This document shows, one piece after another, positions 22,759-47,211 of a DNA stretch of 64,000 bases. Both the position numbers and the translations under genes were made by a program. The notes under the pieces are model-generated. The model saw only the letters and a list, made by a program, of their open reading frames with translations. It searched no databases and had not been told where the DNA came from. How positions within the stretch are numbered: the stretch's first letter is position 1; the number at the start of each line of letters is the position of its first letter. Source of the stretch: a virus (Duplodnaviria; Heunggongvirae; Uroviricota; Caudoviricetes); the IMG/VR virus record IMGVR_UViG_3300042563_002362. The stretch is one strand, 5' to 3'.

Positions 22759-22788
22759 GGAACCCAAAACGAACACGAAACGAACATT

Positions 22789-23250: not shown

Positions 23251-23290
23251 CGAACACGAAACGAACACGAAACGAACACTAAAACACATT

Positions 23291-23821: not shown

Positions 23822-23855
23822 GTAAGGAACCCAAAACGAACACGAAACGAACATT

Positions 23856-24179
23856 ATGACTCCAGTATACATTATCATCAACGAATACGGAAACAAGCAT
23901 TACTACAAGGACAAAGCAATGACGATACGCCATCGTGAAGACGGTCCTGCGGTTGAACTTGCCGATGGGAGTAAAGCTTGGTACTCTAATGGAAAACGCC
24001 ATCGTGAAGATGGTCCTGCGGTTGAATACCCCGATGGACATAAAGTTTGGTATCTCGACGGAGTGAAACACGGTGAACAAGAATTCCTTCTTAAAACCGC
24101 TAAAGAAATCGTCTTGACGATGGACGAGATTGCATCTAAGTTTGGGATTGAAGTGAGCAAGCTCAAGATCCAGAAGTAA
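23856..24179 (+). CDS. MORN-variant repeat protein, array member F (2 repeats)
   Basis: Same architecture, 107 aa. Confidence 0.6.
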   Translation: MTPVYIIINEYGNKHYYKDKAMTIRHREDGPAVELADGSKAWYSNGKRHREDGPAVEYPDGHKVWYLDGVKHGEQEFLLKTAKEIVLTMDEIASKFGIEVSKLKIQK

Positions 24180-24208
24180 CGAACCCGAAACAAACACTAA
24201 AACACATT

Positions 24209-24670
24209 ATGACTCCAGTATACATTATCATCGGCAAATACGGAAACAAGCATTACTACAAGGACAAAGCAATGACGATACTTCATCGTGAAGATGGTCC
24301 TGCAGTTGAACTTGCCGGTGGACATAAAGAATGGTACGTCAATGGAAAACGCCATCGTGAAGACGGTCCTGCGGTTGAATATGCCGATGGAGGTAAAGCT
24401 TGGTTCATCGATGGAAAACGCCATCGTGAAGACGGTCCTGCGGTTGAACTTGCCAGTGGAGGTAAAGAATGGTACGTCAATGGAAAACGCCATCGTGAAG
24501 ACGGTCCTGCGGTTGAACTTGCCGATGGATGTAAAGCTTGGTTCATCGATGGAGTTTCACTAAGTGAACAAGAATTCCTTCTTAAAACCGCTAAAGAAAT
24601 CGTCTTGACGATGGACGAAATTGCATCTAAGTTTGGGATTGATGTAAGCAAGCTAAAGATCTCTAAGTAA
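24209..24670 (+). CDS. MORN-variant repeat protein, array member G (4 repeats)
   Basis: Same architecture, 153 aa. Confidence 0.6.
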   Translation: MTPVYIIIGKYGNKHYYKDKAMTILHREDGPAVELAGGHKEWYVNGKRHREDGPAVEYADGGKAWFIDGKRHREDGPAVELASGGKEWYVNGKRHREDGPAVELADGCKAWFIDGVSLSEQEFLLKTAKEIVLTMDEIASKFGIDVSKLKISK

Positions 24671-27439: not shown

Positions 27440-28675
27440 GTGATATTGCCTGTGGAAATTATTTATAAAAATGACAATCTTATGAAACTATTAGGTTCAA
27501 ACAACAATATTCCGGTTTTCGGCGATCCTCTCCAGAATGCCGTTGATCAGATGTCGAACTGTCTCGTCAAGGGTGGCTACAAGGCTGCACTTATGGCTGA
27601 CCATCACCTTGGTTATGCTGTTCCTGTCGGCGGCGTAATTGCTTACAAGGACAAGATCTCGCCTTCAGGTGTAGGCTTCGACATCGGCTGCGGAAACAAG
27701 GCTGTGATGACTGACCTGCACTATGGAGATATCGCGGGTGATATGAACCGTATCATGGACGAAGTGTTTGATCGCATCTCGTTTGGAATCGGCCGCAAGA
27801 ACAAGACTGATGTTGACCATGCGTTGTTTGACAACGATGCTTGGACTGACATCGCTATGCTCGGCGAGCTGAAGGACATGGCGCGCGGACAGCTTGGTAC
27901 TGTCGGCAGCGGTAACCACTATGTCGATATCTTCTATGATCAAAAGGGTCGCGTTTGGATCGGAGTTCACTTTGGTTCACGTGGTCTTGGTCACAAGATT
28001 GCTTCGCATTACATCAAGGCCGGCGGCGGTGTTGACGGTATTAACGTCGATCCTGCTATCTTGGATGTGAATACTGACCTTGGTCGCGAATACATCGCTG
28101 CTATGAACCTCGCTGGTGAATATGCGTATGCTGGTCGCGATTGGGTCTGTGAAGAAGTTGCTCGTATCCTTGGTGCGTCTATCCTTGACAGCGTTCACAA
28201 CCACCATAACTTCGCTTGGAATGAAACTCATGACGGTGAAGACCTTTGGGTTGTTCGCAAGGGTGCTACTCCTGCTTTCCCAGGTCAACGTGGTTTTGTC
28301 GGTGGAACTATGGGTGAAAACTCAGTGATCCTCGAAGGCGTCGCGTCGGACCTTTCTTCCTCTACTCTGTATTCAACTGTTCACGGTGCAGGCCGAGTCA
28401 TGTCGCGCACCGAAGCTGCTGGTAAGTCCAAGTGGAAGGGTGGAAAGAAGATCAAGATTTCGGAAGGCAAGGTCTCGCAGGCCATGATGGACGAATGGGT
28501 TAACAAGGCTGGCGTTGTTCTTCGCGGCGCAGGCGTCGATGAATCTCCACATGCTTACAAGCGTTTGGCTGATGTCCTTGAAGCTCAGGGCGACACTGTT
28601 CGTATTCTCGACGTTCTTACTCCAATCGGAGTTGCGATGGCAGGTGCTGATGTATTTGATCCTTACGCCGATTGA
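27440..28675 (+). CDS. rtcB: RtcB-family RNA 3'-phosphate/2',3'-cyclic phosphate ligase
   Basis: 411 aa (or 397 aa from the ATG at 27482). It has GFDIGCGN, GSGNHYVDIF and HNHHNFAW blocks, with length typical of RtcB. Confidence 0.65.
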   Translation: MILPVEIIYKNDNLMKLLGSNNNIPVFGDPLQNAVDQMSNCLVKGGYKAALMADHHLGYAVPVGGVIAYKDKISPSGVGFDIGCGNKAVMTDLHYGDIAGDMNRIMDEVFDRISFGIGRKNKTDVDHALFDNDAWTDIAMLGELKDMARGQLGTVGSGNHYVDIFYDQKGRVWIGVHFGSRGLGHKIASHYIKAGGGVDGINVDPAILDVNTDLGREYIAAMNLAGEYAYAGRDWVCEEVARILGASILDSVHNHHNFAWNETHDGEDLWVVRKGATPAFPGQRGFVGGTMGENSVILEGVASDLSSSTLYSTVHGAGRVMSRTEAAGKSKWKGGKKIKISEGKVSQAMMDEWVNKAGVVLRGAGVDESPHAYKRLADVLEAQGDTVRILDVLTPIGVAMAGADVFDPYAD

Positions 28676-29502
28676 ATGATACGTTTCCAATCAGATTCTT
28701 CACCATCTTTGATTCTGAAGAATCTGCATTGTAATTCTTCAATTATTCTATCCTGACGCAGCTTATCTTTAAGTTTTTGATCTGGTCTTTCGTGATAAGC
28801 TTCATCAAACTCAATTACCACATTTTCAACCGGTTCATAATAATCAAGAAGATATCCAGCAACTCTAAATTCACCAACATTTTCAGCATGAACTCCGTTC
28901 CATCCAAGCTCTGAATTTATTTCCTCAAATAATCGACAAGCCTTTGCATTATAATTTGGACATGTCCAGCCTAAAGGATACTTTGAATCAATATCTCGTA
29001 AACGTCCATCTCTCTGTTTTTCTTTAGTCTCTGGTGTATGAATTTTTCCAGTAAATCCAGGCTTTCTCCCTTTAAGACTTTGAGATTTACGTTTTCTAGT
29101 TTCAGGACTTTCAGTAATGCCTAATCGTGACTTGTTGTATTCTTTTCCTTTATTTGCTTTACTGATTTTCTCTTTGGTTTCTTTAGTATGTGTTCGACTA
29201 AAAGCATGACTTCGATCAGTACACTTATAACACGTGGTTGCCTTTAATGCTCGATAGTAACATCCAATTCCAGTATGAATGACAATTTCGCCGCATTGAC
29301 ACGTTCTAGTGTATTCTGTTAATTGAGCTAGTGGATCTTTATCATATGTTCTTTCAACTGCACATGAATCTCTTATTTCTTTGTCCATTAAAAACTTTAC
29401 ATTGTGTTTCTTCTTATACTCATTTGGAGAAAGACCGCAGCAATACTTAAGATGTAAATAACCAATACTTTTTAATTCTCTTTGACACTCTAAGCAAATC
29501 AT
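28663..29502 (-). CDS. free-standing homing-endonuclease-like protein (Cys-rich HNH/Zn-finger plus NUMOD3-like basic repeats)
   Basis: It has N-terminal CLECQ...HLKYCCG and CQCGE...CYKC clusters. The C-terminal region has repeated ETKEK/ETRKRKS/GRKPGF motifs. It is on the opposite strand and overlaps the rtcB 3' end by 13 nt. Confidence 0.4.
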   Translation of the reverse strand: MICLECQRELKSIGYLHLKYCCGLSPNEYKKKHNVKFLMDKEIRDSCAVERTYDKDPLAQLTEYTRTCQCGEIVIHTGIGCYYRALKATTCYKCTDRSHAFSRTHTKETKEKISKANKGKEYNKSRLGITESPETRKRKSQSLKGRKPGFTGKIHTPETKEKQRDGRLRDIDSKYPLGWTCPNYNAKACRLFEEINSELGWNGVHAENVGEFRVAGYLLDYYEPVENVVIEFDEAYHERPDQKLKDKLRQDRIIEELQCRFFRIKDGEESDWKRIIQSA

Positions 29503-29552: not shown

Positions 29553-30536
29553 ATGAAATTCGGAAAAATTCCAAAGAAGCTTAAGTTCTATTGTAGACCT
29601 GAGACCAAGATTCGATTCAGGTGGTCTGATGTTGAATTTGAAGATCCATCTGCCGCAGACGTATCGGCGATCCCAGTGTTTATCACTGACGCCGAAAATC
29701 TAAAGACCCAAAAGACTGCGGTTGATTGGGCAGGACGTGCACAATGGCATTGGGACCCTGTCACTGGAAAAAGAGTCGATGTCAGCAAGCCTTACACGAT
29801 CGTTGAAGCTGATAACTTGCCAGTGAAGAGTGTGCGGATTATTGGTCTTGACATTCGAGGAAATGGTGGTCGTGCATACCAAGCATTGGTTGATGAAAAG
29901 TATCTTGTTGATATGCGTGAAGACGTTATGCTTGATACGATGATCAATGTCGGCATGGGACTTAATGCAACATTACCAGGCGAATACATCTTTGCACAAA
30001 TTGGAGCAGAAATGAAGCTGATTCGCGTAGGTAGCAAGCTGCATGAACTGATGATTGAGACAACTTCATTTGGTGAAAAGAAGGCAATCTCGAAGTTGAT
30101 TCCAGGCCGCGTTTATGCTTCAAAGTCCAAGAAAGTATTGTACCTTGGTGAAGTATGGCATACGCCAATTGAACAAAACTACAATTATCGTAATGGCAAA
30201 TATGATGTGGCCGTGGTTAAACCGAGTCGCAAGCGTCATCTATGTATCGGCATCAATACTACATCTTCGGACCTCAAAACCACTCTTGGTGAAGATACTA
30301 AGTTTTTCACGGTAAATGTTGAATTCACTGAAAAGCAAAGTAAAGCATTCCGCGAAGAACTTGTGGAGATTGAAAACTTTGACATTGAAGAAGCATTGAC
30401 TGAGATTCGTCGCAGAATCGAAGTATGCTATGATGAAGAGATGAGGGGATGGGATCTTGCATATTACTCCAGCATGAACATCTCTGCAACAACTCCTGGG
30501 TGGATTCACCCGAAAATTGCCGAAAGACTAAAATAA
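29553..30536 (+). CDS. hypothetical protein
   Basis: 327-aa ORF. Confidence 0.5.
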   Translation: MKFGKIPKKLKFYCRPETKIRFRWSDVEFEDPSAADVSAIPVFITDAENLKTQKTAVDWAGRAQWHWDPVTGKRVDVSKPYTIVEADNLPVKSVRIIGLDIRGNGGRAYQALVDEKYLVDMREDVMLDTMINVGMGLNATLPGEYIFAQIGAEMKLIRVGSKLHELMIETTSFGEKKAISKLIPGRVYASKSKKVLYLGEVWHTPIEQNYNYRNGKYDVAVVKPSRKRHLCIGINTTSSDLKTTLGEDTKFFTVNVEFTEKQSKAFREELVEIENFDIEEALTEIRRRIEVCYDEEMRGWDLAYYSSMNISATTPGWIHPKIAERLK

Positions 30537-31363
30537 TGAAACCGCAATGGATCATAGAAAACTTCACAAAGGAAGAATCGTTTCTTGACCTTGAAAAAGA
30601 AGTCAGAGCCCAGGGCTATGACGTTCAAACTATCAAAGGTGACTTTCTTAAAGCTGATCTGGCTGATTATCGCGACACATGCGTAATCTTTAATGGCAGC
30701 ATTGAGATGTGCAAGATTGCAAAAGAAGTACTCAGCGCTCAAGGATGCAGTCCAATCATCTATTGTGATTGGGAAAAGTATCTGTGCACCTCTTACTATC
30801 CGCATTTCTCAGAGCACGTCTTCAATGACAACTATGTCTTAGTGCCGATGATTGAGTTTCAGCGTAGGCTGTATCAATTCTATGGCATCTTTGGTAAGCA
30901 AGAGCTGATCTTTGTTCGACCAAACAACGGAGACAAAACCTTTAAAGCTGAACTGCTTGACATTCAAGATGCACCGAAGTTCTTTGAAGAATTAGACCAA
31001 TACAAACATGACTTGGTCCTGCTAAGTACTCCAAAGAACATTGTCGGAGAATGGCGTTTTGTATGTACGGCCGAAAAGGAAATCCTAGCAGTATCAAGCT
31101 ATCGCTATCAAGGAGTACTTACGCGTATTCCGTCTGCTCCACTTGGCGCCACCGAAAAATGTAAAGAGCTTCTTGAGATCGGATATTACCCTGACAGCGT
31201 TTTTTGCATTGATATTGTGCAGGACTCTGACGGAAACTTCTGGATGATGGAACTCACCTCTTTTTCAAGCGCAGGTCTTTACTCCACTAGGAAAGAAAAC
31301 ATTGTCCGCCGCGTTTCTGAAATTGCTATGAAAGATTATGAAAAAAGTAATTTACAAAGCTGA
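30536..31363 (+). CDS. ATP-grasp-fold protein (putative ligase)
   Basis: The track ORF is 30449..31363 and the Met at 30536 abuts the upstream stop. The blocks IFVRPNNGDKTFKAELL, EWRFVCTAEKEILAVSS and FCIDIVQDSDGNFWMMELTS match ATP-grasp core strands (RimK/GshB-like). Confidence 0.4.
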   Translation: MKPQWIIENFTKEESFLDLEKEVRAQGYDVQTIKGDFLKADLADYRDTCVIFNGSIEMCKIAKEVLSAQGCSPIIYCDWEKYLCTSYYPHFSEHVFNDNYVLVPMIEFQRRLYQFYGIFGKQELIFVRPNNGDKTFKAELLDIQDAPKFFEELDQYKHDLVLLSTPKNIVGEWRFVCTAEKEILAVSSYRYQGVLTRIPSAPLGATEKCKELLEIGYYPDSVFCIDIVQDSDGNFWMMELTSFSSAGLYSTRKENIVRRVSEIAMKDYEKSNLQS

Positions 31364-34066: not shown

Positions 34067-34432
34067 ATGAAGCGGTATAGTTATGTAACTGATTGTGGAG
34101 TAGTTGAAGATCCAAATGGTGACTATGTTAAGTATGCCGATTATGAAGCTCTTTCAAAGTATGCTGACAGCCTGGTTGAGTTTTCGAAGATACCATGTCT
34201 TCCAGCTGATCTTAAAAACCTGCGTGAAGCTAATGGTCATTTCGCGCAAGAGAACAGTATCTTACAGGGTAGGATTCGTGAACTTGAAGCAGAAATTCGG
34301 TCGCTGAAAGCATCTCAAAAGATTAATGAAAATGAAATTGTCGGCTGGAAAAACAAGTGGGACGCAGCAGTAACAATTGCTGCAATCGCAGAAAATAAAG
34401 TCGACGCAATTAAACGACAAATCTTTCAATAA
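34067..34432 (+). CDS. coiled-coil protein
   Basis: 122 aa. The C-terminal half is a heptad-rich coiled coil. Confidence 0.4.
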   Translation: MKRYSYVTDCGVVEDPNGDYVKYADYEALSKYADSLVEFSKIPCLPADLKNLREANGHFAQENSILQGRIRELEAEIRSLKASQKINENEIVGWKNKWDAAVTIAAIAENKVDAIKRQIFQ

Positions 34433-35043
34433 TGAGTAACACACAAACACAATATGACGGCTATAAGTACTGTTTCATTGACACCGAAACAACTGGTACC
34501 GATCGTCTAAGGAATCATATCTTTCAAATCAGCGGTCGTATCACGACTCCTGACCTTGAGGAACTAGAATCATTTAACTTAGTCTTCAGACCATACAGTC
34601 TTGAGCATGTTGAACAAGGCGCGCTTGAAAAGACGCGTATGACTGTCGAAGATTTGGCTTCATTCCCAATGTCTAGTTCGCAGGCTTACGCCGAATTTTC
34701 CGAAATCCTAGGAAGGCATGTTCAGAAGTTCAACAAGAAGGATAAGATGCACTTCGTTGCATACAATGCTGGATTTGATGTTGACTTTACGCGACAGTGG
34801 TTTACCGTAAATGGAGACTCATATTTCGGTAGCTGGTTCTGGAACCCGCCGATTTGTTGCATGCAAGCTGCCGCATGGCTGACACAACGTGTTCGAGGTG
34901 CTCTCCCGGACTTCAAACTGGGAACTGTCTGCCGAGCCGCAGAATTAGGATGGAATGAAGACTCTGCTCATAATGCCGATTATGACATTGAGAAAACGGT
35001 GCAGCTTTTCCGCTATTTGACGGAATATGCTCCGAAAATTTGA
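34432..35043 (+). CDS. DnaQ-like 3'-5' exonuclease (DEDDh)
   Basis: ExoI is CFIDTETTG and ExoIII is HNADYD (HxAxxD). Confidence 0.6.
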   Translation: MSNTQTQYDGYKYCFIDTETTGTDRLRNHIFQISGRITTPDLEELESFNLVFRPYSLEHVEQGALEKTRMTVEDLASFPMSSSQAYAEFSEILGRHVQKFNKKDKMHFVAYNAGFDVDFTRQWFTVNGDSYFGSWFWNPPICCMQAAAWLTQRVRGALPDFKLGTVCRAAELGWNEDSAHNADYDIEKTVQLFRYLTEYAPKI

Positions 35044-36024: not shown

Positions 36025-36651
36025 ATGAAACCACTTCGCTACAAATATCCTCGCACATTCCATCTTCCATGGAGCGAAGGCTGCACATCAGACGATAAGA
36101 AGCTGGCAGGCAGCGATCACTTCATTGGTCAGCAGGTTGTGATCACCGAAAAGATGGACGGTGAGAATACGACAATCTATCATGACCATGTTCACGCTCG
36201 TTCGATTGACAGTTCGCATCATTGGTCGCGCTCACGCGTCAAAGAACTGCAGTCTCGCTTGTATGATCTGCCTGAAGATCTGCGAATCTGCGGTGAAAAC
36301 CTTTATGCCAAGCATAGCATCAAGTACGATAACCTTGTGGATTACTTCCAGGTCTTCAGTATTTGGAGCCACGAACAATGCCTCTCTTGGAAGGATACTG
36401 TTGAGTGGGCTGAGATTCTTGGGCTGAAGACTGTTCCTGTTCTCTATAGCGGAGTCTATAGCTATCCGATCATCAAGGAGATTCAAAATAAAATGGACTT
36501 CTCACGCAGTGAAGGTTATGTAATTCGCCTAGCCGATTCATTCCGCATGAAGGACTTCTCGAAGAGCGTCGCTAAGTATGTCCGTACTAATCATGTCCAA
36601 ACCGACGAGCATTGGATGACTGCTGAACCTGAAACAAATACCTTAGTATGA
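36025..36651 (+). CDS. small KxDG nucleotidyltransferase, RNA-ligase-like (Rnl2-type NTase domain only)
   Basis: YPRTFHLPWS is followed by ITEKMDGENTTIY (motif I KxDG near residue 43). 208 aa. Confidence 0.4.
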   Translation: MKPLRYKYPRTFHLPWSEGCTSDDKKLAGSDHFIGQQVVITEKMDGENTTIYHDHVHARSIDSSHHWSRSRVKELQSRLYDLPEDLRICGENLYAKHSIKYDNLVDYFQVFSIWSHEQCLSWKDTVEWAEILGLKTVPVLYSGVYSYPIIKEIQNKMDFSRSEGYVIRLADSFRMKDFSKSVAKYVRTNHVQTDEHWMTAEPETNTLV

Positions 36652-37487: not shown

Positions 37488-37660
37488 TATGAAACGCGGG
37501 GATACTCTTAAAATCACCAAGACCTTTAATGACAAGCCCGTCACGCTATCTTACTTGGTACTTGCCGTAAAGGAAAACATTGTTACCGTAAGAACTCCTA
37601 AAAGATACATTGCGCGTCTTAACATCAACAATTTTACACTCATCTCAAAACCACATTAAT

Positions 37661-39010
37661 ATGAAAACATTTGAAAACGTACTATCCGCTCTGAACGAAA
37701 TTGCTAGCGTTCCTGGTAAGAAGGACAAAGAAGCGCTCGTCAAGAAGCACCTTGAAAACACACCTGACTTTGAAAAGGTCGTTGTGCTGATGCTGAATCC
37801 GTTCAAGCGATTCTACATCAAGAACTTCGAGCCAGCGACCGATGCTCCATCAACCTGGAATTCTGATGACGCTTACTTTATCTTTGATGAATTGGCGAAA
37901 CGGAATGTATCTGGAAACGAAGCGCGTTATGCTTGCGGTCGCTTGGTTGCTGCTGGATTTCCCGCTGACCTCATGATCCGTATTCTTAACAAGGATCCTA
38001 AGGCAGGCTTCGGTGAATCCACTGTCAATAAGGCAAAGAAAGGCATCATTCCTGACTTCCCTTATATGCGCTGTGCACTACCAAAGGATGCTAAGTTCTC
38101 TACTTGGGATTGGAAGAAGGGTGTGATTTCGCAGGAAAAGGCTGACGGAATGTACTGCACAATCAACAAGTCCACTGGAGATATCGCAATGATGTCCCGC
38201 AGTGGTAAGCCGTTTGACACCGACTCCTTCCCAGGTATTGTTGAAGCCGCAAAGAAAATGCTCAACGATAACACGCAGACTCAAGGCGAGCTGCTTGTAA
38301 TCAATGCTGCTGGCGAAGTTCAGCCGCGGGAAATTGGTAATGGTATGCTCAACAAGATTGCGCAAGGTGGAGTATGGCCTGACGGCTTTTCTCCGATTTA
38401 CCATGCATGGGATCAGATTCCGCTGTCCGAAGTAAAGACCAAGGTTAAGTACAACGTTGGCTATCTTGCGCGTCTCACTGCGCTTGAGGCTCAACTTGGC
38501 GAACATAGTCAGGCAATCGCAGTCATCGACACTCGGGTTGTCCACAACATGGACGAAGCAAAAGCACACTATCGTGAAATGCTTGAAGCTGGCAAGGAAG
38601 GTACTATTCTGTCTGAGCCAAACGCTCCATGGGTTGACAGTACTTCCAAGTTTAAGATCAAGTTTAAGCTGACCGCTACATGTGAATTGGTTATCACTGG
38701 CTGGCGTCCTGGTAAGAACAAGAACAAGGACTTGTTTGGCTCGCTAATTTGTGAATCATCTGACGGTCTGCTTGAGGTCGCTGTCTCTGGTTTTACCGAC
38801 AGTCATCGTAAGGAAATCTTCGAAAGCATCGACAGTTACATCGGTACGATTATGTCGGTTGACTCTAATATGATCATGGAACCTTCGCGCGGAGGTAAGA
38901 AGTGGAGCCTGTTCCTTCCACGATTTGCTGAATTCCGTAAGGACAAGACTGAAGCCGATTCGCTTGACAAGATCAAGGAACAATTTGAAGCTGCTATCCA
39001 ACTCGCATGA
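37661..39010 (+). CDS. ATP-dependent DNA ligase (T4 gp30-like)
   Basis: The track ORF is 37610..39010, and the Met at 37661 gives 449 aa. Motif I is KADGMYC near residue 160, matching the T4 ligase K159 position. Further NTase/OB motifs lie downstream. Confidence 0.65.
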   Translation: MKTFENVLSALNEIASVPGKKDKEALVKKHLENTPDFEKVVVLMLNPFKRFYIKNFEPATDAPSTWNSDDAYFIFDELAKRNVSGNEARYACGRLVAAGFPADLMIRILNKDPKAGFGESTVNKAKKGIIPDFPYMRCALPKDAKFSTWDWKKGVISQEKADGMYCTINKSTGDIAMMSRSGKPFDTDSFPGIVEAAKKMLNDNTQTQGELLVINAAGEVQPREIGNGMLNKIAQGGVWPDGFSPIYHAWDQIPLSEVKTKVKYNVGYLARLTALEAQLGEHSQAIAVIDTRVVHNMDEAKAHYREMLEAGKEGTILSEPNAPWVDSTSKFKIKFKLTATCELVITGWRPGKNKNKDLFGSLICESSDGLLEVAVSGFTDSHRKEIFESIDSYIGTIMSVDSNMIMEPSRGGKKWSLFLPRFAEFRKDKTEADSLDKIKEQFEAAIQLA

Positions 39011-41041: not shown

Positions 41042-41554
41042 ATGAAAGTAAAATACAAAGGAAGCGCGCAATCTATCAACAACAACGACACTTATACGGT
41101 GCTTGATCGTTGTGGATACACCGATCGTTACAAGATTCGCAATGATTCTGGTTGCGTTGAATGGTATGCGGCTAGGAAATTCGTTGAAGTCAATGAAAAG
41201 GTTGATACCTCGACGGCTATTAACAGCGATCTTGTGAATAAGATTCAGCGTGAACTTAAGGAGACCGAAGAACGTCTGGGCGTTCTCCGAAATGAACTTG
41301 AGAACGCAAAGAACCCGCCAAGCAAAAACATTTTGGAACGTGCTACTCGTAAGCTTGGTCGCAGTTGGATAAACGAAGTTGGAGGTGCTTTAGATAACCT
41401 CGCAGATGATTTGGTGATTATCACCGGTGAATGGGTTCGCGGCCTTTCCATTGGCGTATCTATTGAAGGTGATGGGATCATGCTTGACCGTGATTATGAC
41501 TGGAACATCACGTATCGTAACGGACGTCCTATTCTTCTAATTCTTGACAAGTAA
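41042..41554 (+). CDS. hypothetical protein
   Basis: 170-aa ORF. Confidence 0.4.
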   Translation: MKVKYKGSAQSINNNDTYTVLDRCGYTDRYKIRNDSGCVEWYAARKFVEVNEKVDTSTAINSDLVNKIQRELKETEERLGVLRNELENAKNPPSKNILERATRKLGRSWINEVGGALDNLADDLVIITGEWVRGLSIGVSIEGDGIMLDRDYDWNITYRNGRPILLILDK

Positions 41555-41556
41555 TT

Positions 41557-41778
41557 ATGACAGGACAACTTCCAAGACCAGGTAGTGTTTGGCGCCAGAC
41601 CGCTCTTAATCGGCAAATGCGTGTAGTCTTCTCAAGCATGAAGGAGATCATCGCGCATGATGCTGAAATGAGTGATCGTCTTGAACACATAGTTTCATGG
41701 GTAGGTACCGCCGATGAGTTTAACAAACTCTTTGAACCAGGTGACCCATCTAAATTCCCTCAGACCGCAAAGGCATGA
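41557..41778 (+). CDS. hypothetical protein
   Basis: 73-aa ORF. Confidence 0.35.
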   Translation: MTGQLPRPGSVWRQTALNRQMRVVFSSMKEIIAHDAEMSDRLEHIVSWVGTADEFNKLFEPGDPSKFPQTAKA

Positions 41779-42173
41779 TTGTTGAAATTCAAACAACGAA
41801 GGAAATCCAATTGACGCATGTTTGGATTCAGGTGCCAGTGCGATATGAAGACCAAGACATTCCATACGATTTCCCTTTCAGAACAAAGAACGTATGGACG
41901 CCGGCAATTGAACTTGACACTGGACGTGTTGTCGATTGGCCAAAGGGCGTATCGGCAAATGTGTATCTAAAGGTATGCGATTCAGGTCGATATAATCTTA
42001 TGGATAATGGGATGATCGTTGAGACAATTCATGATTATGTCCCAGCCTTTATTCCAAATGAATATGGCGATTACATCAATTTTGACATCAATGAGGATGG
42101 TGTCATTCTTAATTGGTATAATCCCGAAAGTATCAAAGATATGATCGAAGAATATCTAAACGAAAACTCATGA
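41775..42173 (+). CDS. hypothetical protein
   Basis: 132-aa ORF, overlap-coupled. Confidence 0.4.
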   Translation: MIVEIQTTKEIQLTHVWIQVPVRYEDQDIPYDFPFRTKNVWTPAIELDTGRVVDWPKGVSANVYLKVCDSGRYNLMDNGMIVETIHDYVPAFIPNEYGDYINFDINEDGVILNWYNPESIKDMIEEYLNENS

Positions 42174-42745
42174 AAAATCTGTATCTTATCCGACATGGCC
42201 AAAGCGTCGCGAATGTCGATCCTTCGCATTACTTCACTCAGCATGATCATCTGATTAGTCTTACTGACCTTGGGCGCGAACAGGCAAAGGAGGCGGGCAA
42301 GCGAGTATCTTACTTGGTGCAGAACCGTCCATTCACGATTGTTCATTCTCCATTTGTGCGTGCGTCTGAAACGGCGTCGATCATTGACAAGCAATGTATT
42401 CTTGACGGGAAGTATGCAGCGATCCATGAATCTCCTCTGTTGTATGAACGCAGCTGGGGTAACCTACGTGAAATTGTCGACAGCCCTGAATTGGATGCTA
42501 ACATGCATTTCAATTTCTTCTATCGACCTGTAAGCGGCGAAAGCTTTGCAGATACGTATGTTCGCGTTGTGACCTTCTTGCAAGAAGTTCGTATTGGGCG
42601 ATATCCGCATGATGACATTGTGATTGTTGCTCATGGTGAATGGATTCGTTTAGCAATGATGTATTTGCGTAGTCAATCAGTAGATTACTTTAATCGCTAT
42701 CATACAAATCCTGAAAATTGTAAGGTTATCCTAGAACAACTATGA
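42170..42745 (+). CDS. histidine phosphatase (phosphoglycerate-mutase superfamily)
   Basis: The N-terminus is LYLIRHGQSVAN (RHG catalytic motif), and a second His lies in VIVAHGEWIR. Confidence 0.55.
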   Translation: MKNLYLIRHGQSVANVDPSHYFTQHDHLISLTDLGREQAKEAGKRVSYLVQNRPFTIVHSPFVRASETASIIDKQCILDGKYAAIHESPLLYERSWGNLREIVDSPELDANMHFNFFYRPVSGESFADTYVRVVTFLQEVRIGRYPHDDIVIVAHGEWIRLAMMYLRSQSVDYFNRYHTNPENCKVILEQL

Positions 42746-42776
42746 TCATTTTGTCAAATTATTACAAATAATGTTG

Positions 42777-42813
42777 TTTACATTTTCCAGGAATCTGTTT
42801 ATAATACTGTTGT
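42777..42813 (+). promoter_or_regulatory. sigma70-type promoter (short leader)
   Basis: The -35 TTTACA is at 42777-42782 and the -10 TATAAT at 42800-42805. ATG at 42814. Confidence 0.5.
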
Positions 42814-43257
42814 ATGGATACCGATAAGATCATTAACTCTGACGTTTTGGAATTTTCCACTCGTGCGCATGCCGGACAAACCCGAAAGTTTACGGGCACG
42901 CCTTACATCACGCATCCAATTGCGGTTGCATCAATTGCAAAGGATATTGTTGATAGTGATTGGATTGACAATTCACTGCTTGAGAAGGTTGCATTGCTTC
43001 ACGATGTTCTTGAAGATACTGATGTTACATATGAAGAATTGCTTGAGGTATTTGGAGGAGAAGTCGCGGGCTGTGTTCGGATTTTGACTAAGATTCCAAG
43101 TGAAACTTATCTGCAAGCAATCTTGCGTGCGAAAAAGAATCCAATCACTCGCATTGTAAAGTATGCAGACAATGTGCATAACAGCTCAGATCTTAAGCCG
43201 GGTTGTCTAAAGGACAAGTACGAGATGTCAATGTACATTCTTTCAGACGGACACTAA
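42814..43257 (+). CDS. SpoT/RelA-type HD-domain hydrolase (small alarmone hydrolase-like)
   Basis: HPIAVASIAKDIV...ALLHDVLEDT matches the (p)ppGpp hydrolase HD signature. It is 147 aa and has no synthetase domain. Confidence 0.5.
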   Translation: MDTDKIINSDVLEFSTRAHAGQTRKFTGTPYITHPIAVASIAKDIVDSDWIDNSLLEKVALLHDVLEDTDVTYEELLEVFGGEVAGCVRILTKIPSETYLQAILRAKKNPITRIVKYADNVHNSSDLKPGCLKDKYEMSMYILSDGH

Positions 43258-43262
43258 TTTGA

Positions 43263-43297
43263 TTTACATACAACCATAATCCATTTATAATAACAAT
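43263..43297 (+). promoter_or_regulatory. sigma70-type promoter
   Basis: The -35 TTTACA is at 43263-43268 and the -10 TATAAT at 43286-43291. ATG at 43298. Confidence 0.45.
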
Positions 43298-43564
43298 ATG
43301 AAAAACAATATTGAACTTACGCGCGATTCACTCCTACAGTCTCTCGGACAAGATGTATGTGAAGTGATCTTTACTAAAAAGGATGGCGGTGAACGCCTTA
43401 TGCGTTGCACTCGCGATTTGAAACGAGCCATCAATGCTCCGATTCCGAAGAATGAAAACTTCGTTGATGACAATCCTGACGTGATTCGCGCATATGATCT
43501 TGAGGCTGAAGGATGGCGTTCATTCATCATCGCTAATGTTAAGAGCGCAACCGTATTTGCATAA
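43298..43564 (+). CDS. hypothetical protein
   Basis: 88-aa ORF. Confidence 0.4.
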   Translation: MKNNIELTRDSLLQSLGQDVCEVIFTKKDGGERLMRCTRDLKRAINAPIPKNENFVDDNPDVIRAYDLEAEGWRSFIIANVKSATVFA

Positions 43565-43875
43565 TGGATCAGTGGAGTCAAAATTTTGCGCTTGCTCGTC
43601 TCGTCGGATTAAATCCTGATGAATTCACGGGTAAGTGGATTGGAATTGGGTCTAACTTCCATGGGTATGATGATAAAAAACGTCTTGTCATCATACATGA
43701 CTTCTACAATAGCCTTGATGAATTGCGATGGGTTGATGACGCATACGGCAATTCAGAAATCGCTCCATCCGATGTTTTTTCTCCAATTGAGATGACAGTT
43801 ATGTTTCTTTCTTGTCGTCCTCATATGCGAACCGAGGCAATCCTAAAATCACTTGACCTTTGGGTAGAGAAGTAA
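43564..43875 (+). CDS. hypothetical protein
   Basis: 103-aa ORF. Confidence 0.4.
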   Translation: MDQWSQNFALARLVGLNPDEFTGKWIGIGSNFHGYDDKKRLVIIHDFYNSLDELRWVDDAYGNSEIAPSDVFSPIEMTVMFLSCRPHMRTEAILKSLDLWVEK

Positions 43876-43876
43876 T

Positions 43877-44128
43877 ATGATATCCGAAACAATTAACACT
43901 GAGATCAATAATCACTGTGGTACAATTCAATTGGATTATTACCATAGTCTTGACGCGATGCACATGGCTGAGAAGACATTGTCACCGCGCGTGTGGCTAA
44001 CATATATCGACAATCTAAATGCAGTTGTTGGTGATTATGAAAGACCTAAAGGTGTTCAACATTCCGAATCATATCAAAAGGCACATGCATTCTACAAAAC
44101 AATAACAGAATATGGCAAATCTCTTTAA
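43877..44128 (+). CDS. hypothetical protein
   Basis: 83-aa ORF. Confidence 0.35.
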   Translation: MISETINTEINNHCGTIQLDYYHSLDAMHMAEKTLSPRVWLTYIDNLNAVVGDYERPKGVQHSESYQKAHAFYKTITEYGKSL

Positions 44129-45341
44129 CAAGTCAGGTAAGGTTCATGCACCTGACTTTAAGTACACCGGCGAAGAACCCGATTGGCACAATTGGGAAAA
44201 GTGGACAGTAGAAAAGTTCTACCAAGTTCAAAGCAAAGCTTTACGTTTTTACAATTACTATCTTGATAGCAATGCATTTAAGCCTATCGTTTTGTCATGG
44301 ATGAAGAAGAATGGATATACCAAAGATGAGATGTCTCTAATTAAAGATTCAGCTCCATGGTATCTTCCGACAACAGTAGGTAAGCTTATTCGTATGATGG
44401 ACGTGGGTATGCCAAGTATTCACCCGCAGGCTGAAGAATACTTTGAAGGTCTGTTGAGATATGACGAAGACGTACCGTTAAAGCCAAAGGATTCTATCGA
44501 AGCGGTAGATAGTTATATACGAAAAGCTCTTAAGACGATTAACGCTGACACACAAACTCCAGCGGTCGCACTGATAAAACAGGACGAAAAAAAGAAGATC
44601 ACGCCACTGGATCGCATTCGTGAACGTGTTCAAAAAGATATTTTAATTTATTTAGATGAACTGAATGATAGCTGGACCGATACTTCAAAAGCGGTTGCAT
44701 CTCTTAACTTAGGTAATATGTTAAGAGATCATAAGATCCCTGCGCAAGGTCTAGGCGACATCATCAAATGGATTGAGCGCAACCTCGAAGAATATCGAGG
44801 CGCATACGAAAAGACTGATCCCCAATTGGTTGAAGGATATTCATACATGTCTAAGCCAAACCTACGTAAGATCGTTTCGATATTAGAGACTTTTAAAGCT
44901 GACGTTGAATCGCATGGCAAGATCAAAAATGCAATGCGTAAGCCGCGAACTAAGAAGCCTAAGGCTGCCGATAAGCAAGTGCAACGTCTTAAGTATCAGT
45001 CTAACTCCGCAGAATATGCACTTGAGAGTGTTTCACCGTCGCGTATCCCATACGCCCAACGTCTATACATATTCAATACCAAGACTCGACAAATTGGTGT
45101 TTACTATGCAAGCGGTAACAATGGATTTGAAGTTAAAGGTACATCACTTAAAGGATTTGATGATGCGCTTAGCTTCCATGCCACATTGCGCAAGCCAAAG
45201 GATATTCTTACTGGTGTACTATCGTCGACTCTGAAGAAGCTTGATAAAATCTTTGATGGAGTTAAGATCACTAAGAAGAAAGCTAATGGCCGTCTAAACG
45301 AACACACTATTATTCTCAAAGTACTTGAACATCGACCATGA
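44112..45341 (+). CDS. hypothetical protein (409 aa)
   Basis: Long ORF in the replication-gene neighbourhood. Confidence 0.5.
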   Translation: MANLFNKSGKVHAPDFKYTGEEPDWHNWEKWTVEKFYQVQSKALRFYNYYLDSNAFKPIVLSWMKKNGYTKDEMSLIKDSAPWYLPTTVGKLIRMMDVGMPSIHPQAEEYFEGLLRYDEDVPLKPKDSIEAVDSYIRKALKTINADTQTPAVALIKQDEKKKITPLDRIRERVQKDILIYLDELNDSWTDTSKAVASLNLGNMLRDHKIPAQGLGDIIKWIERNLEEYRGAYEKTDPQLVEGYSYMSKPNLRKIVSILETFKADVESHGKIKNAMRKPRTKKPKAADKQVQRLKYQSNSAEYALESVSPSRIPYAQRLYIFNTKTRQIGVYYASGNNGFEVKGTSLKGFDDALSFHATLRKPKDILTGVLSSTLKKLDKIFDGVKITKKKANGRLNEHTIILKVLEHRP

Positions 45342-45586
45342 CAGATATTACTCCTGAAACAATCATTCCTATCCTAACTAAAGCAGATCTAATTTCTCAG
45401 GCTGAGGCATTAGTTCGTACTGAAAGTATGGGTTATGCTGAAGCAATCATTCACGTGTGTGATATGAAAGGTATTGACCCTGAGGACATCGCTAAGCTTG
45501 TTGGCGGAAGTCTTAAAGAAAAGCTTAAAGCTGAAGCACAACGAAACAACCTATTACCAAAACCAAATAGCCTGTTCGGTCTATGA
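45338..45586 (+). CDS. hypothetical protein
   Basis: 82-aa ORF. Confidence 0.35.
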   Translation: MTDITPETIIPILTKADLISQAEALVRTESMGYAEAIIHVCDMKGIDPEDIAKLVGGSLKEKLKAEAQRNNLLPKPNSLFGL

Positions 45587-46218
45587 TTAGTGTTTCAGAT
45601 GAAACAACTATAACCCCATTTGACGCTTGGAGTATATACACTGCGCTGTCATTGCATTTCCGTAAGGACAGCGGCTATGACGCATTTCGTTTTAACTTTA
45701 AAGGTCCGCGCTGCAAGCGTGAAACATTTATGGCGTATCGGCAGCGCTATGCATTTGAGAAAATAGCACGTGCATATCCGAATAAGAACTCTACAATCGA
45801 ATACTTCCTTGCAAACCTGCTAGACGGGAATACTTGGATTGGTTCAATGAATGACGATTCTTATGCAGGATGGCAAGGCCGCGTTCAACGAATGGACTAT
45901 GACTTCCGTTCTGCAATGTCAGACTTGTCTAACAATGCAAGTTCATTTGACTCTATCATCAAGCCGTCTTCACGTGAAGACATGCCGCCGATTTACCAGG
46001 CATACACTCGAGGAAAACTTCCAATCGAGACGTTAGTAATCCTCGACACATTGGTGAACTACACGTCGAGTATAAATAAGTTTGTGAGCGACCCGCTAGA
46101 GATTGTCTCTGACATTACCTACCGTGTCTCTCGCTACAAGCCCTTCTTAAGATCGAAAATTGATGTTTCGAAGGCAAAACAAAATGTACTAAATTCGTTT
46201 ACATATGTAAACAAATAG
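45583..46218 (+). CDS. gp59-like helicase-loading protein
   Basis: 211 aa, adjacent to the SSB gene as in T4 (59-32). Blocks align to T4 gp59: YAFEKIARAY/YFFQKLSEKY, NTWIGSMNDDSYA/DAWIGDISDADA and LPIETLVILDTLVN/ISFETFILLDSFLN. Confidence 0.45.
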   Translation: MISVSDETTITPFDAWSIYTALSLHFRKDSGYDAFRFNFKGPRCKRETFMAYRQRYAFEKIARAYPNKNSTIEYFLANLLDGNTWIGSMNDDSYAGWQGRVQRMDYDFRSAMSDLSNNASSFDSIIKPSSREDMPPIYQAYTRGKLPIETLVILDTLVNYTSSINKFVSDPLEIVSDITYRVSRYKPFLRSKIDVSKAKQNVLNSFTYVNK

Positions 46219-46269: not shown

Positions 46270-47211
46270 ATGTCGTTTGATAAACTGAAACAAAATCGTG
46301 CAGCCGCAATCTCAAAACTCGTGAATGCTGCTGAAAAGACAGGCGGAACTAAAACCTATGGCGATGATCGTCTGTGGGCACCAACCGTCGATAAGACTGG
46401 TAACGGGTATGCTATTATCCGTTTCCTCCCTGCTAAGGAAGGTGAAGATCTTCCATGGGTTCGCTATTGGGATCATGGATTCAAGGGACCAACTGGTCGT
46501 TGGTACATTGAGAACAGCTTGACCAGCATCGGTCAGACTGACCCAGTTTCTGAACTCAACTCTGTTCTTTGGAACAGCGGTAATGAAAAAGACAAGGAAG
46601 TTGCACGCGATCGTAAGCGTCGTCTGCATTACGTTTCTAACATCCTGGTTGTTAGCGATCCTGCTAATCCAGCAAATGAAGGAAAGGTATTTATCTTCAA
46701 ATATGGTAAGAAGATCTTTGACAAGATCAATGATCTGATGCAACCGCAATTCCAGGACGAGACGCCGGTCAATCCGTTCGACTTCTGGGGTGGCGCAAGC
46801 TTCCGCTTGAAGATTCGCAACTTCGAAGGATATCGTAACTATGATAAGAGCGAGTTTGATAAACCAACCGAACTCTTTGGCGGTGACGATGCACGTCTTG
46901 AGGAAATCTATGGCCAGCTCCATAGCCTATCCGACTTCGTCGATCCGAAGAGCTACAAGTCCTACACTGAACTCAAGAAGAAGCTCATCGAGGTTCTTGG
47001 CGAAGAAGCAGTTAATGGATCAGCCTCAACTGCACATACTGCAGTTGCTGAAGTTAATGTTGGTCGTGCCGTTGAAGCACAAGCAGCACCAGCAGCTGGT
47101 AGCTCATATGACGATGTCAATGATGACATTCCATTCACGTCTGACGGCGGTACATCATCCGAAGGAGACGATGATGACATCAGCTACTTTGCTAAGCTTG
47201 CACGTGGTTAA
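46270..47211 (+). CDS. gp32-like single-stranded DNA-binding protein
   Basis: 313 aa. NGYAIIRFLP parallels T4 gp32 NGQAVIRFLP, and the core is Zn/Cys-His containing. The C-terminal tail is acidic: DDDDISYFAKLARG. Confidence 0.65.
   Translation: MSFDKLKQNRAAAISKLVNAAEKTGGTKTYGDDRLWAPTVDKTGNGYAIIRFLPAKEGEDLPWVRYWDHGFKGPTGRWYIENSLTSIGQTDPVSELNSVLWNSGNEKDKEVARDRKRRLHYVSNILVVSDPANPANEGKVFIFKYGKKIFDKINDLMQPQFQDETPVNPFDFWGGASFRLKIRNFEGYRNYDKSEFDKPTELFGGDDARLEEIYGQLHSLSDFVDPKSYKSYTELKKKLIEVLGEEAVNGSASTAHTAVAEVNVGRAVEAQAAPAAGSSYDDVNDDIPFTSDGGTSSEGDDDDISYFAKLARG

What the first reader, a model, noticed from the sequence alone, without database searches (positions are those of the whole stretch)
42170..43257. 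SpoT-type HD (p)ppGpp hydrolase-like gene next to a histidine phosphatase
The 147-aa protein has the RelA/SpoT hydrolase signature (H...HDxxED) and no synthetase domain, so it is a small alarmone hydrolase candidate. Together with the adjacent PGM-family phosphatase, it could degrade (p)ppGpp, ppApp or pyrophosphorylated tRNA produced by host toxSAS or CapRel-type defence, or block the stringent response.
Basis: partly seen in the sequence, partly recalled or inferred. Interest (0 to 1): 0.5.

Follow-up and report, generated by a model that had tools for sequence, protein, structure and literature searches.

The report
Phage small alarmone hydrolase gene
A T4-like phage carries an early-expressed, single-domain SpoT/Rel-type hydrolase, an enzyme kind already known and tested in other phages, and nothing outside this lineage links it functionally to the histidine phosphatase gene beside it.

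Summary
ORF 42814-43257 (147 aa) is a single-domain RelA/SpoT-type HD hydrolase, a small alarmone hydrolase (SAH). It passes the Pfam HD_4 cut-off and keeps all catalytic residues (H34, H63-D64, E67-D68, D119, N123). A confident AlphaFold model matches only RSH hydrolases. ORF 42170-42745 (191 aa) is an intact branch-1 histidine phosphatase with no inferable substrate.

The HD protein is a compact, eight-helix form. Its closest solved relative is Aph1, a (p)ppApp hydrolase. It lacks Aph1's adenine-specificity residues and has the Rel-type Arg24-Lys25, so (p)ppGpp, possibly also (p)ppApp and pyrophosphorylated tRNA, is the likeliest substrate.

The gene has its own conserved early promoter ending 8 nt before the ATG, and a second copy follows its stop codon.

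The phosphatase pairing occurs only within this phage lineage. None of 80 other viral SAH loci has a histidine phosphatase nearby, each gene also occurs without the other beside it, and the two genes show discordant similarity patterns.

Phage SAHs are already known and were shown to neutralise toxic alarmone synthetases (SSU5, PVP-SE1). This is a new member of a known kind, of modest interest.

The parts
42170..42745 (+). Histidine phosphatase, branch 1 (191 aa). Catalytic core intact, substrate unknown. A neighbour of the hydrolase, not shown to be its functional partner.
   Evidence: Pfam His_Phos_1 93 bits. All NCBIfam equivalogs (CobC, dPGM, PspA, SixA) score below their cut-offs. R8, H9, R64 and H155 invariant, E93 nearly invariant. 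AF2 pLDDT 96.2. Foldseek finds many branch-1 phosphatases at 16-24% identity with different substrates. Its start overlaps the stop of the upstream ORF (ATGA at 42170-42173), and it has no promoter of its own.
42777..42805 (+). Early sigma-70-type promoter (TTTACA-N17-TATAAT) whose -10 hexamer ends 8 nt before the HD start codon. It predicts a leaderless or nearly leaderless mRNA.
   Evidence: One of 13 exact matches in the window against 0.05 expected. The same promoter at the same 8-nt distance is present in relatives L003, L008, L011 and L014. No Shine-Dalgarno sequence is visible.
42814..43257 (+). Compact small alarmone hydrolase (147 aa), a RelA/SpoT-type HD hydrolase domain only.
   Evidence: HD_4 above cut-off. 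spoT_relA hydrolase region E 5.6e-21. PDB sequence hits MESH1, SpoT, Rel and Aph1 at E about 1e-12 to 1e-13. AF2 pLDDT 93.5 with eight main helices. Foldseek top hit is Aph1 7smg (TM 0.79/0.82), followed only by RSH hydrolases. dN/dS 0.09-0.29.
43263..43291 (+). Second copy of the early promoter, starting 6 nt after the HD stop codon and ending 6 nt before the ATG of the next gene (WYL_2-domain protein, 43298-43564). With the first copy it brackets the HD gene as a promoter-flanked cassette.
   Evidence: The same arrangement is seen in L003, L008 and L011. The downstream gene is Pfam WYL_2, E 5e-9.

Best explanation
ORF 42814-43257 encodes a stand-alone metal-dependent 3'-pyrophosphohydrolase of the RelA/SpoT hydrolase family, a small alarmone hydrolase.

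Host RNA polymerase transcribes it early from its own sigma-70-type promoter, probably as a leaderless mRNA. The HD/ED metal centre (H34, H63-D64, E67-D68, D119, N123) cleaves the 3'-pyrophosphate from (p)ppGpp. By analogy with other SAHs it probably also acts on (p)ppApp and on 3'-pyrophosphorylated tRNA.

The result is that alarmone-mediated shutdown is blunted in the infected cell, whether it comes from the stringent response or from toxic alarmone-synthetase (toxSAS/CapRel-type) abortive infection.

The enzyme acts on its own. The upstream histidine phosphatase is a separate early gene with an unknown substrate.

Shown here: family, fold, intact active site, purifying selection, conserved promoter, separability from the phosphatase. 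Inferred: substrate range and biological role.
For: Family and active site:
- Pfam, NCBIfam and PHROG matches and invariant catalytic residues.
- A confident model whose first 48 PDB fold matches are all RSH hydrolases or SAHs.

Substrate:
- By transitivity through the ungapped stretch of the alignment to Aph1, Arg24-Lys25 occupy the positions of TtRel R43-R44. Those residues contact guanine there, and the first is Asp24 in the (p)ppApp-specific Aph1 (PMC10083569).
- The Aph1 D24R/R119A double mutant gains ppGpp hydrolysis (PMC10083569). This protein naturally has Arg at 24 and no counterpart of R119.

Expression and selection:
- The early promoter is conserved at a fixed distance in four relatives.
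- dN/dS is 0.09-0.29.

Precedent:
- Phage SAHs PaSpo (SSU5) and PbcSpo (PVP-SE1) neutralise all five tested toxSAS (PMC7229694). PaSpo is 38% identical to this protein over 126 residues.
- MESH1 and ATfaRel restore aminoacylation of pyrophosphorylated tRNA (10.1101/2021.04.30.441581).
- Loss of (p)ppGpp changes infection efficiency about ten-fold in either direction, depending on the phage (PMC12814882).

Independence from the phosphatase.
Against: - No biochemical data exist for this protein or for any close relative. The nearest solved structure, Aph1, is (p)ppApp-specific and only 32% identical.
- The subfamily has its own conserved C-terminal motif (HN-x-S-D-L-K-x-G-x3-D-K-Y). Its effect on specificity is unknown.
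- The host is unknown, so it cannot be said whether it carries toxSAS systems.
- Relative L013 carries an HD copy without a canonical start codon, which suggests the gene is dispensable in some genomes.
- The pair has stayed adjacent down to about 47-51% protein identity, so some functional link to the phosphatase cannot be excluded.
Confidence: 0.6

Rival explanations
1. It is an Aph1-type enzyme specific for (p)ppApp. It would protect the infected cell only against (p)ppApp-producing toxins (FaRel, Tas1, Apk-type) and would leave (p)ppGpp untouched.
For: Aph1 (7smg) is the best fold match and the only one covering the whole protein (TM 0.79/0.82). Length (147 vs 149 aa) and the eight-helix topology without helix 9 match (PMC10083569). 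A profile of the C-terminal third alone finds Aph1 best (E 1.6e-4), against E 0.04 or worse for Rel, SpoT and MESH1.
Against: Only 2 of the 6 Aph1 signature residues are kept (R96 = R105, Y134 = Y141). D24 is Arg, D116 is Ser, R119 has no counterpart and K133 is Met. D24 and R119 are the two residues whose mutation opens Aph1 to ppGpp (PMC10083569). Among the 150 best cluster representatives, 144 have Arg at this position and 4 have Asp.
Confidence: 0.15
2. The histidine phosphatase and the hydrolase form a two-step module. For example, the SAH removes 3'-pyrophosphate and the phosphatase removes residual 2'/3'-monophosphates from nucleotides (pGp, ppGp) or tRNA ends. This would complement the phage's CCA-adding enzyme, RtcB and RNA ligases.
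For: The gene order His_Phos then HD is kept in window, L003, L011, L014/L015 and (truncated) L004-L006 and L008-L010, down to about 47-51% identity. A 40%-identical phosphatase homolog lies in a phage RNA-repair cluster with RNA ligases, PTH2, NUDIX, NADAR, HAD_SAK_2 and a weak 2H-SAK match. The window itself carries RNA-repair genes.
Against: The whole ligase-to-gp32 region is syntenic in these phages, so adjacency may only reflect common descent. None of 80 other viral SAH loci has a His_Phos ORF within 4 kb by tblastn or profile HMM. L001 has HD without the phosphatase within 6 kb. L013 has the phosphatase followed by an unrelated 63-aa ORF. Phage phosphatase homologs in RTH11 and Ab1-TPeters have no gene annotated as an HD-domain protein within 4 kb, and tblastn with the HD protein finds no match in those two loci. 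Identities are discordant: window-L003 82% vs 67%, window-L011 62% vs 77%. A separate promoter precedes HD. SAH chemistry releases a free 3'-OH and needs no second enzyme (10.1101/2021.04.30.441581).
Confidence: 0.1
3. It acts like metazoan MESH1 on a non-alarmone substrate, for example as an NADPH 2'-phosphatase or on PAPS-like nucleotides. In that case it would reprogramme host redox or cofactor pools rather than signalling.
For: MESH1 is among the best sequence and fold matches, including its NADPH and PAPS complexes 5vxa and 9chy. MESH1 is reported to be an NADPH phosphatase (cited in 10.1101/2021.04.30.441581).
Against: MESH1 is not closer than the bacterial Rel, SpoT and Aph1 proteins: all score about 50 bits. 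MESH1 has the extra C-terminal helix that this protein lacks. No bacterial or phage SAH has been shown here to have this as its main role.
Confidence: 0.07
4. It is a generic HD phosphohydrolase outside the RSH family, such as a dNTP triphosphohydrolase or a cyclic-nucleotide phosphodiesterase.
For: Weak matches to dGTPase models exist: NCBIfam E 0.004, 16 bits; PADLOC dGTPase 14.8 bits.
Against: Those matches cover only the H...HD motif (residues about 31-94 or 32-65) and lie far below their cut-offs of 390-494 bits. The first non-RSH fold hit (YpgQ) is at rank 49, E 0.076, TM 0.48.
Confidence: 0.03

Closest known systems
Phage-encoded stand-alone SAHs: PaSpo of Salmonella phage SSU5 and PbcSpo of phage PVP-SE1 (Jimmy et al. 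2020, PMC7229694)
   Same: Single-domain RSH hydrolase carried by a phage without a partner toxin. Same catalytic motifs. 38% identity to PaSpo over residues 14-127. The proposed role, removing toxSAS products, is the one demonstrated for those proteins in E. coli toxicity-neutralisation assays.
   Different: PaSpo is 213 aa with a C-terminal extension, whereas this protein is 147 aa and ends after helix 8. It sits in a T4-like lytic myovirus rather than a plasmid-prophage. It has not been tested experimentally. Subfamily assignment in the Atkinson RSH scheme could not be made here. The PVP-SE1 protein was not retrieved.
Aph1, (p)ppApp hydrolase of Bacteroides caccae (PDB 7SMG; Ahmad et al. 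2023, PMC10083569)
   Same: Best structural match (TM 0.79/0.82, 32% identity). Same length class and eight-helix topology without helix 9. The C-terminal region is specifically related. R96 and Y134 equivalents are kept.
   Different: It lacks D24 (Arg here), D116 (Ser), R119 (no counterpart) and K133 (Met). It is not next to a MuF/Apk toxin. Specificity is therefore expected to include, or to favour, guanosine alarmones.
Hydrolase domain of long RSH enzymes (Rel, SpoT) and MESH1
   Same: H...HD...ED...D...N catalytic set and the R-K pair after the conserved GQ. E about 1e-12 to 1e-13 to A. baumannii SpoT, M. tuberculosis Rel and MESH1.
   Different: No synthetase or regulatory domains. Lacks the N-terminal helix 0 and C-terminal helix 9 described for these enzymes (PMC10083569). 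Has its own C-terminal motif S-D-L-K-x-G-x3-D-K-Y.
'HD-alarmone PDEase' genes noted in jumbo phages (Iyer et al. 2021, PMC7824862) and the SAH of Pseudomonas phage Adele (PMC12846349)
   Same: The same kind of gene, predicted in lytic phages and interpreted as interference with alarmone signalling. In both cases substrate preference is left open.
   Different: Those are computational annotations in other phage groups. Here the gene lies in the early region upstream of gp33-gp59-gp32 of a T4-like phage, behind its own promoter.
Broad-specificity branch-1 histidine phosphatases (PhoE of Geobacillus, 1H2E/1EBB; Rv2419c; CobC)
   Same: For ORF 42170-42745: the RHG motif, second catalytic His, Arg and Glu are conserved. 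The best PDB sequence hit is PhoE, E 1.3e-6. Fold matches have TM 0.7-0.8.
   Different: Identity is only 16-24%. No equivalog model reaches its cut-off, so no substrate can be transferred.

Membership tests
RelA/SpoT-homolog hydrolase domain (Pfam HD_4), small alarmone hydrolase class | Sequence match to the family model above the curated threshold | tested here: met
   PF13328 41.2 bits against a cut-off of 27.2. TIGR00691 aligns over model positions 2-118, E 5.6e-21. That whole-protein cut-off is not applicable to a single-domain protein.
RelA/SpoT-homolog hydrolase domain (Pfam HD_4), small alarmone hydrolase class | Metal-binding and catalytic residues H...HD...ED...D...N | tested here: met
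   H34, H63, D64, E67, D119 and N123 are invariant, and D68 is present in at least 90% of 50-120 homologs. All align with the same residues of Rel, SpoT, MESH1 and Aph1.
RelA/SpoT-homolog hydrolase domain (Pfam HD_4), small alarmone hydrolase class | All-helical RSH hydrolase fold | tested here: met
   AF2 model pLDDT 93.5. Foldseek ranks 1-48 are all RSH hydrolases or SAHs.
RelA/SpoT-homolog hydrolase domain (Pfam HD_4), small alarmone hydrolase class | Hydrolase only: no synthetase or regulatory domains | tested here: met
   147 aa, with only HD_4/HD matched.
RelA/SpoT-homolog hydrolase domain (Pfam HD_4), small alarmone hydrolase class | Mn2+/Mg2+-dependent hydrolysis of the 3'-pyrophosphate of (p)ppGpp or (p)ppApp | not testable with these tools
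   Needs an enzyme assay.
Aph1 family of (p)ppApp-specific hydrolases (PMC10083569) | Compact eight-helix protomer lacking the C-terminal helix 9 | tested here: met
   Model helices at 9-18, 33-45, 53-62, (65-68), 73-80, 82-91, 99-107, 110-125 and 131-144. Aph1 is covered end to end (TMt 0.82).
Aph1 family of (p)ppApp-specific hydrolases (PMC10083569) | Homology of the C-terminal ~53 residues, the criterion the authors used to collect the family | tested here: inconclusive
   A profile of the C-terminal third hits Aph1 best, but weakly (E 1.6e-4, 24 bits). The single sequence gives no hit. The authors' jackhmmer set could not be consulted.
Aph1 family of (p)ppApp-specific hydrolases (PMC10083569) | Signature residues D24, R96, D116, R119, K133, Y134 | tested here: not met
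   The equivalents are R24, R105, S125, none, M140 and Y141, so 2 of 6 are kept. One MAFFT alignment instead pairs K133-Y134 with K135-Y136. Either way D24, D116 and R119 are missing.
Aph1 family of (p)ppApp-specific hydrolases (PMC10083569) | Tetrameric assembly | not tested
   Only a monomer was modelled.
Type IV toxSAS-SAH toxin-antitoxin module (FaRel-ATfaRel type) | SAH gene adjacent to a small alarmone synthetase toxin gene | tested here: not met
   The neighbours on both sides (41042-42173 and 43298-45586) have no RelA_SpoT synthetase match. They are unknowns, WYL_2 and the gp33-like coactivator. The upstream neighbour is the phosphatase.
dNTP triphosphohydrolase (dGTPase/SAMHD1-type HD) | Match to family models beyond the bare HD motif | tested here: not met
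   12-16 bits against cut-offs of 390-494, covering residues about 30-94 only. PADLOC dGTPase 14.8 bits. No such fold among the top 48.
Histidine phosphatase superfamily branch 1 (ORF 42170-42745) | RHG phospho-acceptor His, second His, two Arg and Glu; alpha/beta fold | tested here: met
   PF00300 93 bits. R8, H9, R64 and H155 invariant, G10 and E93 at least 90% conserved. Model pLDDT 96.2. 277 PDB fold matches at E 0.001 or better, and all 50 listed are branch-1 enzymes.
Specific branch-1 enzymes (CobC alpha-ribazole phosphatase, dPGM, PspA, SixA) | Score above the NCBIfam equivalog cut-off | tested here: not met
   The best is CobC at 63.7 bits against a cut-off of 162.9. All the others are also below cut-off.

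The most novel reading that the evidence does not exclude
In this lineage of T4-like phages the histidine phosphatase and the compact Arg24-type SAH act together as a 3'-end clean-up module for nucleotides or tRNA. The SAH would remove 3'-pyrophosphate and the phosphatase residual 2'/3'-monophosphate. This would feed the phage's own CCA-adding enzyme, RtcB and RNA ligases and so counter tRNA-directed abortive-infection systems. On this reading the large uncharacterised SAH subfamily with the S-D-L-K-x-G-x3-D-K-Y motif would have a substrate preference, for example pyrophosphorylated tRNA, distinct from both Rel-type and Aph1-type enzymes.
Probability: 0.1. Interest if true: 0.6.

Novelty: new member of a known kind. 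Interest (0 to 1): 0.3.

Why it matters
Phage small alarmone hydrolases are a recognised way for phages to undo alarmone-based growth arrest and toxSAS/CapRel-type abortive infection. This adds an example from an uncultured T4-like phage.

It also points to a large subfamily with no solved structure closer than about 32% identity: about 2,000 clusters at 50% identity with E of 1e-10 or better. Members combine the compact Aph1-like fold with the guanine-type arginine. Testing one member would show whether fold compactness and base specificity are separable in this enzyme family.

The result also warns against reading function from a neighbouring gene when the adjacency is limited to one syntenic lineage.

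Tried and rejected
- Megablast of 41500-44200 against the phage collection found no match, so no annotated close relative exists there.
- The search for related loci with the phosphatase alone in viral contigs found no relatives.
- A PDB search with the C-terminal 52 residues as a single sequence found nothing. A profile was needed.
- PADLOC gave only marginal HD-motif matches.
- I looked for an HD domain in the 143-aa ORF that follows the distant phosphatase homolog in L016. There is none, only a weak 2H-SAK match.
- I considered whether the ORF upstream of HD in the 142-kb relative L001 corresponds to the window's 132-aa ORF. It shows no similarity.
- I fetched the first 50 kb of PVP-SE1 to retrieve its tested SAH. 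No product name there suggested it, and I did not fetch the rest.
- A literature search for a phage histidine phosphatase in counter-defence listed no paper that contains the phrase 'histidine phosphatase'.
- Assignment to the Atkinson SAH subfamilies (PaSpo, PbcSpo, Mesh1 and others) was not possible because their HMMs are not available here.
Full report
**What is there**

The interval holds two same-strand ORFs. ORF A is 42170-42745 (191 aa) and ORF B is 42814-43257 (147 aa).

ORF B:
- It matches Pfam HD_4, the RelA/SpoT hydrolase domain, at 41.2 bits against a cut-off of 27.2.
- It matches the hydrolase part of the NCBIfam spoT_relA model (positions 2-118, E 5.6e-21).
- It matches PHROG 990 (E 9e-37).
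- There is no synthetase domain.

ORF A:
- It matches His_Phos_1 at 93 bits.
- No substrate-specific equivalog model reaches its cut-off.

**Genomic setting**

The window is part of a T4-like myovirus.
- A DNA ligase lies at 37610-39010. A gp33-like late coactivator lies at 45338-45586, a gp59 helicase loader at 45583-46218 and gp32 at 46270-47211. Baseplate genes follow from about 59 kb.
- No phage in the reference collection is close at the DNA level.
- gp32 is 50-58% identical to those of cyanophages, Methylophilales phage Melnitz and phage C48C1.

The two ORFs lie in the early region upstream of gp33-gp59-gp32.

**The HD protein is an RSH hydrolase**

- Its best solved-structure relatives by sequence are MESH1, A. 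baumannii SpoT, M. tuberculosis Rel and the (p)ppApp hydrolase Aph1. All have E about 1e-12 to 1e-13.
- H19, Y31, H34, H63, D64, E67, K116, D119 and N123 are invariant in 50 homologs. D68, R24 and Y136 are nearly so.
- An AlphaFold model built on that alignment is confident: pLDDT 93.5, pTM 0.89.
- Against the PDB its first 48 matches are all RSH hydrolases or SAHs. The first outsider, YpgQ, appears at rank 49 with E 0.076.
- dGTPase models touch only the HD motif, at 12-16 bits.

**Which kind of SAH**

The model has eight main helices and ends at residue 144, without the extra C-terminal helix of Rel, PaSAH and MESH1.

The top fold match, and the only one covering the target end to end, is Aph1 (7smg; TM 0.79/0.82, 32% identity). 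A profile of the C-terminal third alone also finds Aph1 first (E 1.6e-4). Rel, SpoT and MESH1 score E 0.04 or worse and align only up to the HN motif.

The published Aph1 specificity signature (D24, R96, D116, R119, K133, Y134; PMC10083569) is nevertheless not met. The equivalents here are R24, R105, S125, no counterpart, M140 and Y141. One alignment pairs K133-Y134 with K135-Y136 instead.

In that paper D24 occupies the position of the guanine-contacting R43 of T. thermophilus Rel, and the D24R/R119A double mutant acquires ppGpp hydrolysis. This phage protein naturally has Arg24-Lys25 and lacks R119.

My inference is that it accepts (p)ppGpp and may be bifunctional.

The subfamily is large:
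- 22,723 cluster representatives at E of 1e-3 or better, and 1,977 at 1e-10 or better.
- The best 150 have a median length of 153.5 aa.
- 144 of those 150 carry Arg at position 24.
- They share a conserved motif HN-x-S-D-L-K-x-G-x3-D-K-Y.

**Expression**

The window contains 13 exact copies of TTTACA-N16-18-TATAAT against 0.05 expected. Most carry the extended form TTTCCGTTTATAAT. These are evidently the phage's early promoters.
- One ends 8 nt before the HD start codon.
- A second starts 6 nt after the HD stop and ends 6 nt before the next gene's ATG.
- The first is conserved at exactly the same 8-nt distance in relatives L003, L008, L011 and L014.
- Most other copies are followed by a 21-27-nt leader, typically AATTCTGTAAGGCAACCACTACAAA.

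HD and its downstream neighbour would therefore be made from leaderless or nearly leaderless early transcripts. That is an inference from spacing and has not been shown.

ORF A has no promoter of its own. Its start overlaps the stop codon of the upstream ORF.

**Is the phosphatase a partner?**

For a link:
- The gene order His_Phos then HD then WYL_2 is found in the window, L003, L011 and L014/L015. It is also found, truncated, in L004-L006 and L008-L010. It persists down to about 47-51% identity.

Against a link:
- The whole ligase-to-gp32 region is syntenic in these contigs, so adjacency may only reflect descent.
- L001, a 142-kb relative with 71% HD identity, has HD in a different context with no phosphatase within 6 kb.
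- In L013 the phosphatase is followed by an unrelated 63-aa ORF. An HD copy lies 2.6 kb upstream and lacks an ATG, GTG or TTG start.
- Among the 80 best IMG/VR loci encoding an SAH relative (of at least 559), none has a histidine phosphatase within 4 kb by tblastn or by profile HMM, with positive controls recovered.
- Phage phosphatase homologs in Xanthomonas RTH11 and Acinetobacter Ab1-TPeters have no gene annotated as an HD-domain protein within 4 kb, and tblastn with the HD protein finds no match in those loci.
- Similarities are discordant. Window against L003 is 82% for the phosphatase and 67% for HD. Window against L011 is 62% and 77%. This indicates recombination between the two genes.

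The promoter copies on both sides of HD suggest a cassette that can be exchanged. From my own knowledge, this resembles the promoter-flanked mobile early-gene cassettes described for T4-type phages by Arbiol et al. 2010. I did not check that resemblance here.

Both genes are under purifying selection, with dN/dS 0.07-0.29 where dS is estimable.

The phosphatase has an intact active site and a confident model. Its fold matches span enzymes with unrelated substrates at 16-24% identity. I therefore treat it as a separate early enzyme of unknown substrate.

One hint at RNA or nucleotide end chemistry is that a 40%-identical homolog sits in a phage RNA-repair cluster.

**Comparison with what is known**

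- Stand-alone phage SAHs were described and tested by Jimmy et al. (PMC7229694). The SAHs of phages SSU5 (PaSpo) and PVP-SE1 (PbcSpo) neutralise CapRel, PhRel, PhRel2, FaRel and FaRel2. The authors proposed that incoming phages use SAHs to bypass alarmone-mediated defence.
- PaSpo (SSU5_099, 213 aa) is 38% identical to ORF B over 126 residues.
- SAHs also remove the pyrophosphate that toxSAS place on tRNA CCA ends (10.1101/2021.04.30.441581).
- Similar genes were noted in jumbo phages (PMC7824862) and in Pakpunavirus phage Adele (PMC12846349).
- 523 phage records in the reference collection encode a relative.
- The idea that lowering (p)ppGpp helps some phages has experimental backing: infection efficiency changes about ten-fold in either direction in a (p)ppGpp-null host (PMC12814882).

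What is specific here is the compact Aph1-like form with a Rel-type arginine, the dedicated early promoter, and the lineage-restricted phosphatase neighbour.

**Verdict**

This is a real, intact and ordinary member of a known class of phage auxiliary or counter-defence genes. Substrate preference and role are inferred, not shown. The suggested cooperation with the phosphatase is not supported by comparative evidence, though it is not excluded. Interest is modest.

Noticed in passing
window, 13 sites: 9378-9405(-), 9431, 9659, 11233, 14143, 17894, 31351, 35121, 37005, 39772, 42777, 43263, 46198 (+): A family of near-identical early promoters (TTTACA-N16-18-TATAAT, often TTTCCGTTTATAAT): 13 found against 0.05 expected. 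Most are followed by a conserved leader of about 21-27 nt (AATTCTGTAAGGCAACCACTACAAA-ATG) without a classical Shine-Dalgarno sequence. Three have the ATG only 6-8 nt after the -10 hexamer, implying leaderless mRNAs: HD at 42814, the WYL_2 gene at 43298, and the helicase on the minus strand ending near 9398.
   Followed up: partly
window 11544-12575, 16456-17049, 18555-19973, 27440-28675, 34432-35043, 36025-36651: A set of RNA and tRNA end-processing genes scattered over the window: an RNA ligase (phrog_968), a second HD protein related to the HD domain of the 3'-5' exoribonuclease YhaM (E 7e-12), a CCA-adding tRNA nucleotidyltransferase, RtcB, a DEDD/RNase_T-family exonuclease, and a second RNA ligase (PF09414). 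Together with the SAH this hints at a tRNA-protection theme.
   Followed up: partly
L013 1983-2435: In one relative the HD homolog (52% identical) sits 2.6 kb upstream of the phosphatase. It has an open frame but no ATG, GTG or TTG start after the preceding stop codon. It is either a non-canonical start (ATT or ATA) or a decaying gene.
   Followed up: partly
L016 1-10672 (Logan contig SRR18749962_37355): A 40%-identical phosphatase homolog lies in a dense phage cluster of RNA-repair and NAD-related genes: HAD_SAK_2, two RNA ligases, PTH2, NUDIX, NADAR, a weak 2H-SAK match, AAA_33 and Metallophos.
   Followed up: no
window 42170-43257 compared with L003 and L011: Adjacent genes have discordant similarity. 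The phosphatase is 82% identical and HD 67% identical to L003, but 62% and 77% to L011. This indicates recombination at the intergenic promoter.
   Followed up: partly
window 44112-45341: A 409-aa protein of unknown function (phrog_11903, no Pfam match) is conserved immediately upstream of the gp33-like coactivator in all related contigs examined.
   Followed up: no
window 21674-24670: A run of similarly sized ORFs (176, 176, 153, 176 and 153 aa) suggests a tandem paralog family. The first has a weak DUF6745 match. Relative L013 also has two consecutive 176-aa ORFs.
   Followed up: no
window 28663-29502 (-): A NUMOD3-motif protein, a likely homing endonuclease, lies on the opposite strand directly after RtcB.
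   Followed up: no
window 547-1224, 6898-7665, 10609-11202, 14197-15144, 30449-31363: Other auxiliary genes: ThyX, PhoH, a UPF0227 protein, a weak radical-SAM match and an ATP-grasp (R2K) protein.
   Followed up: no
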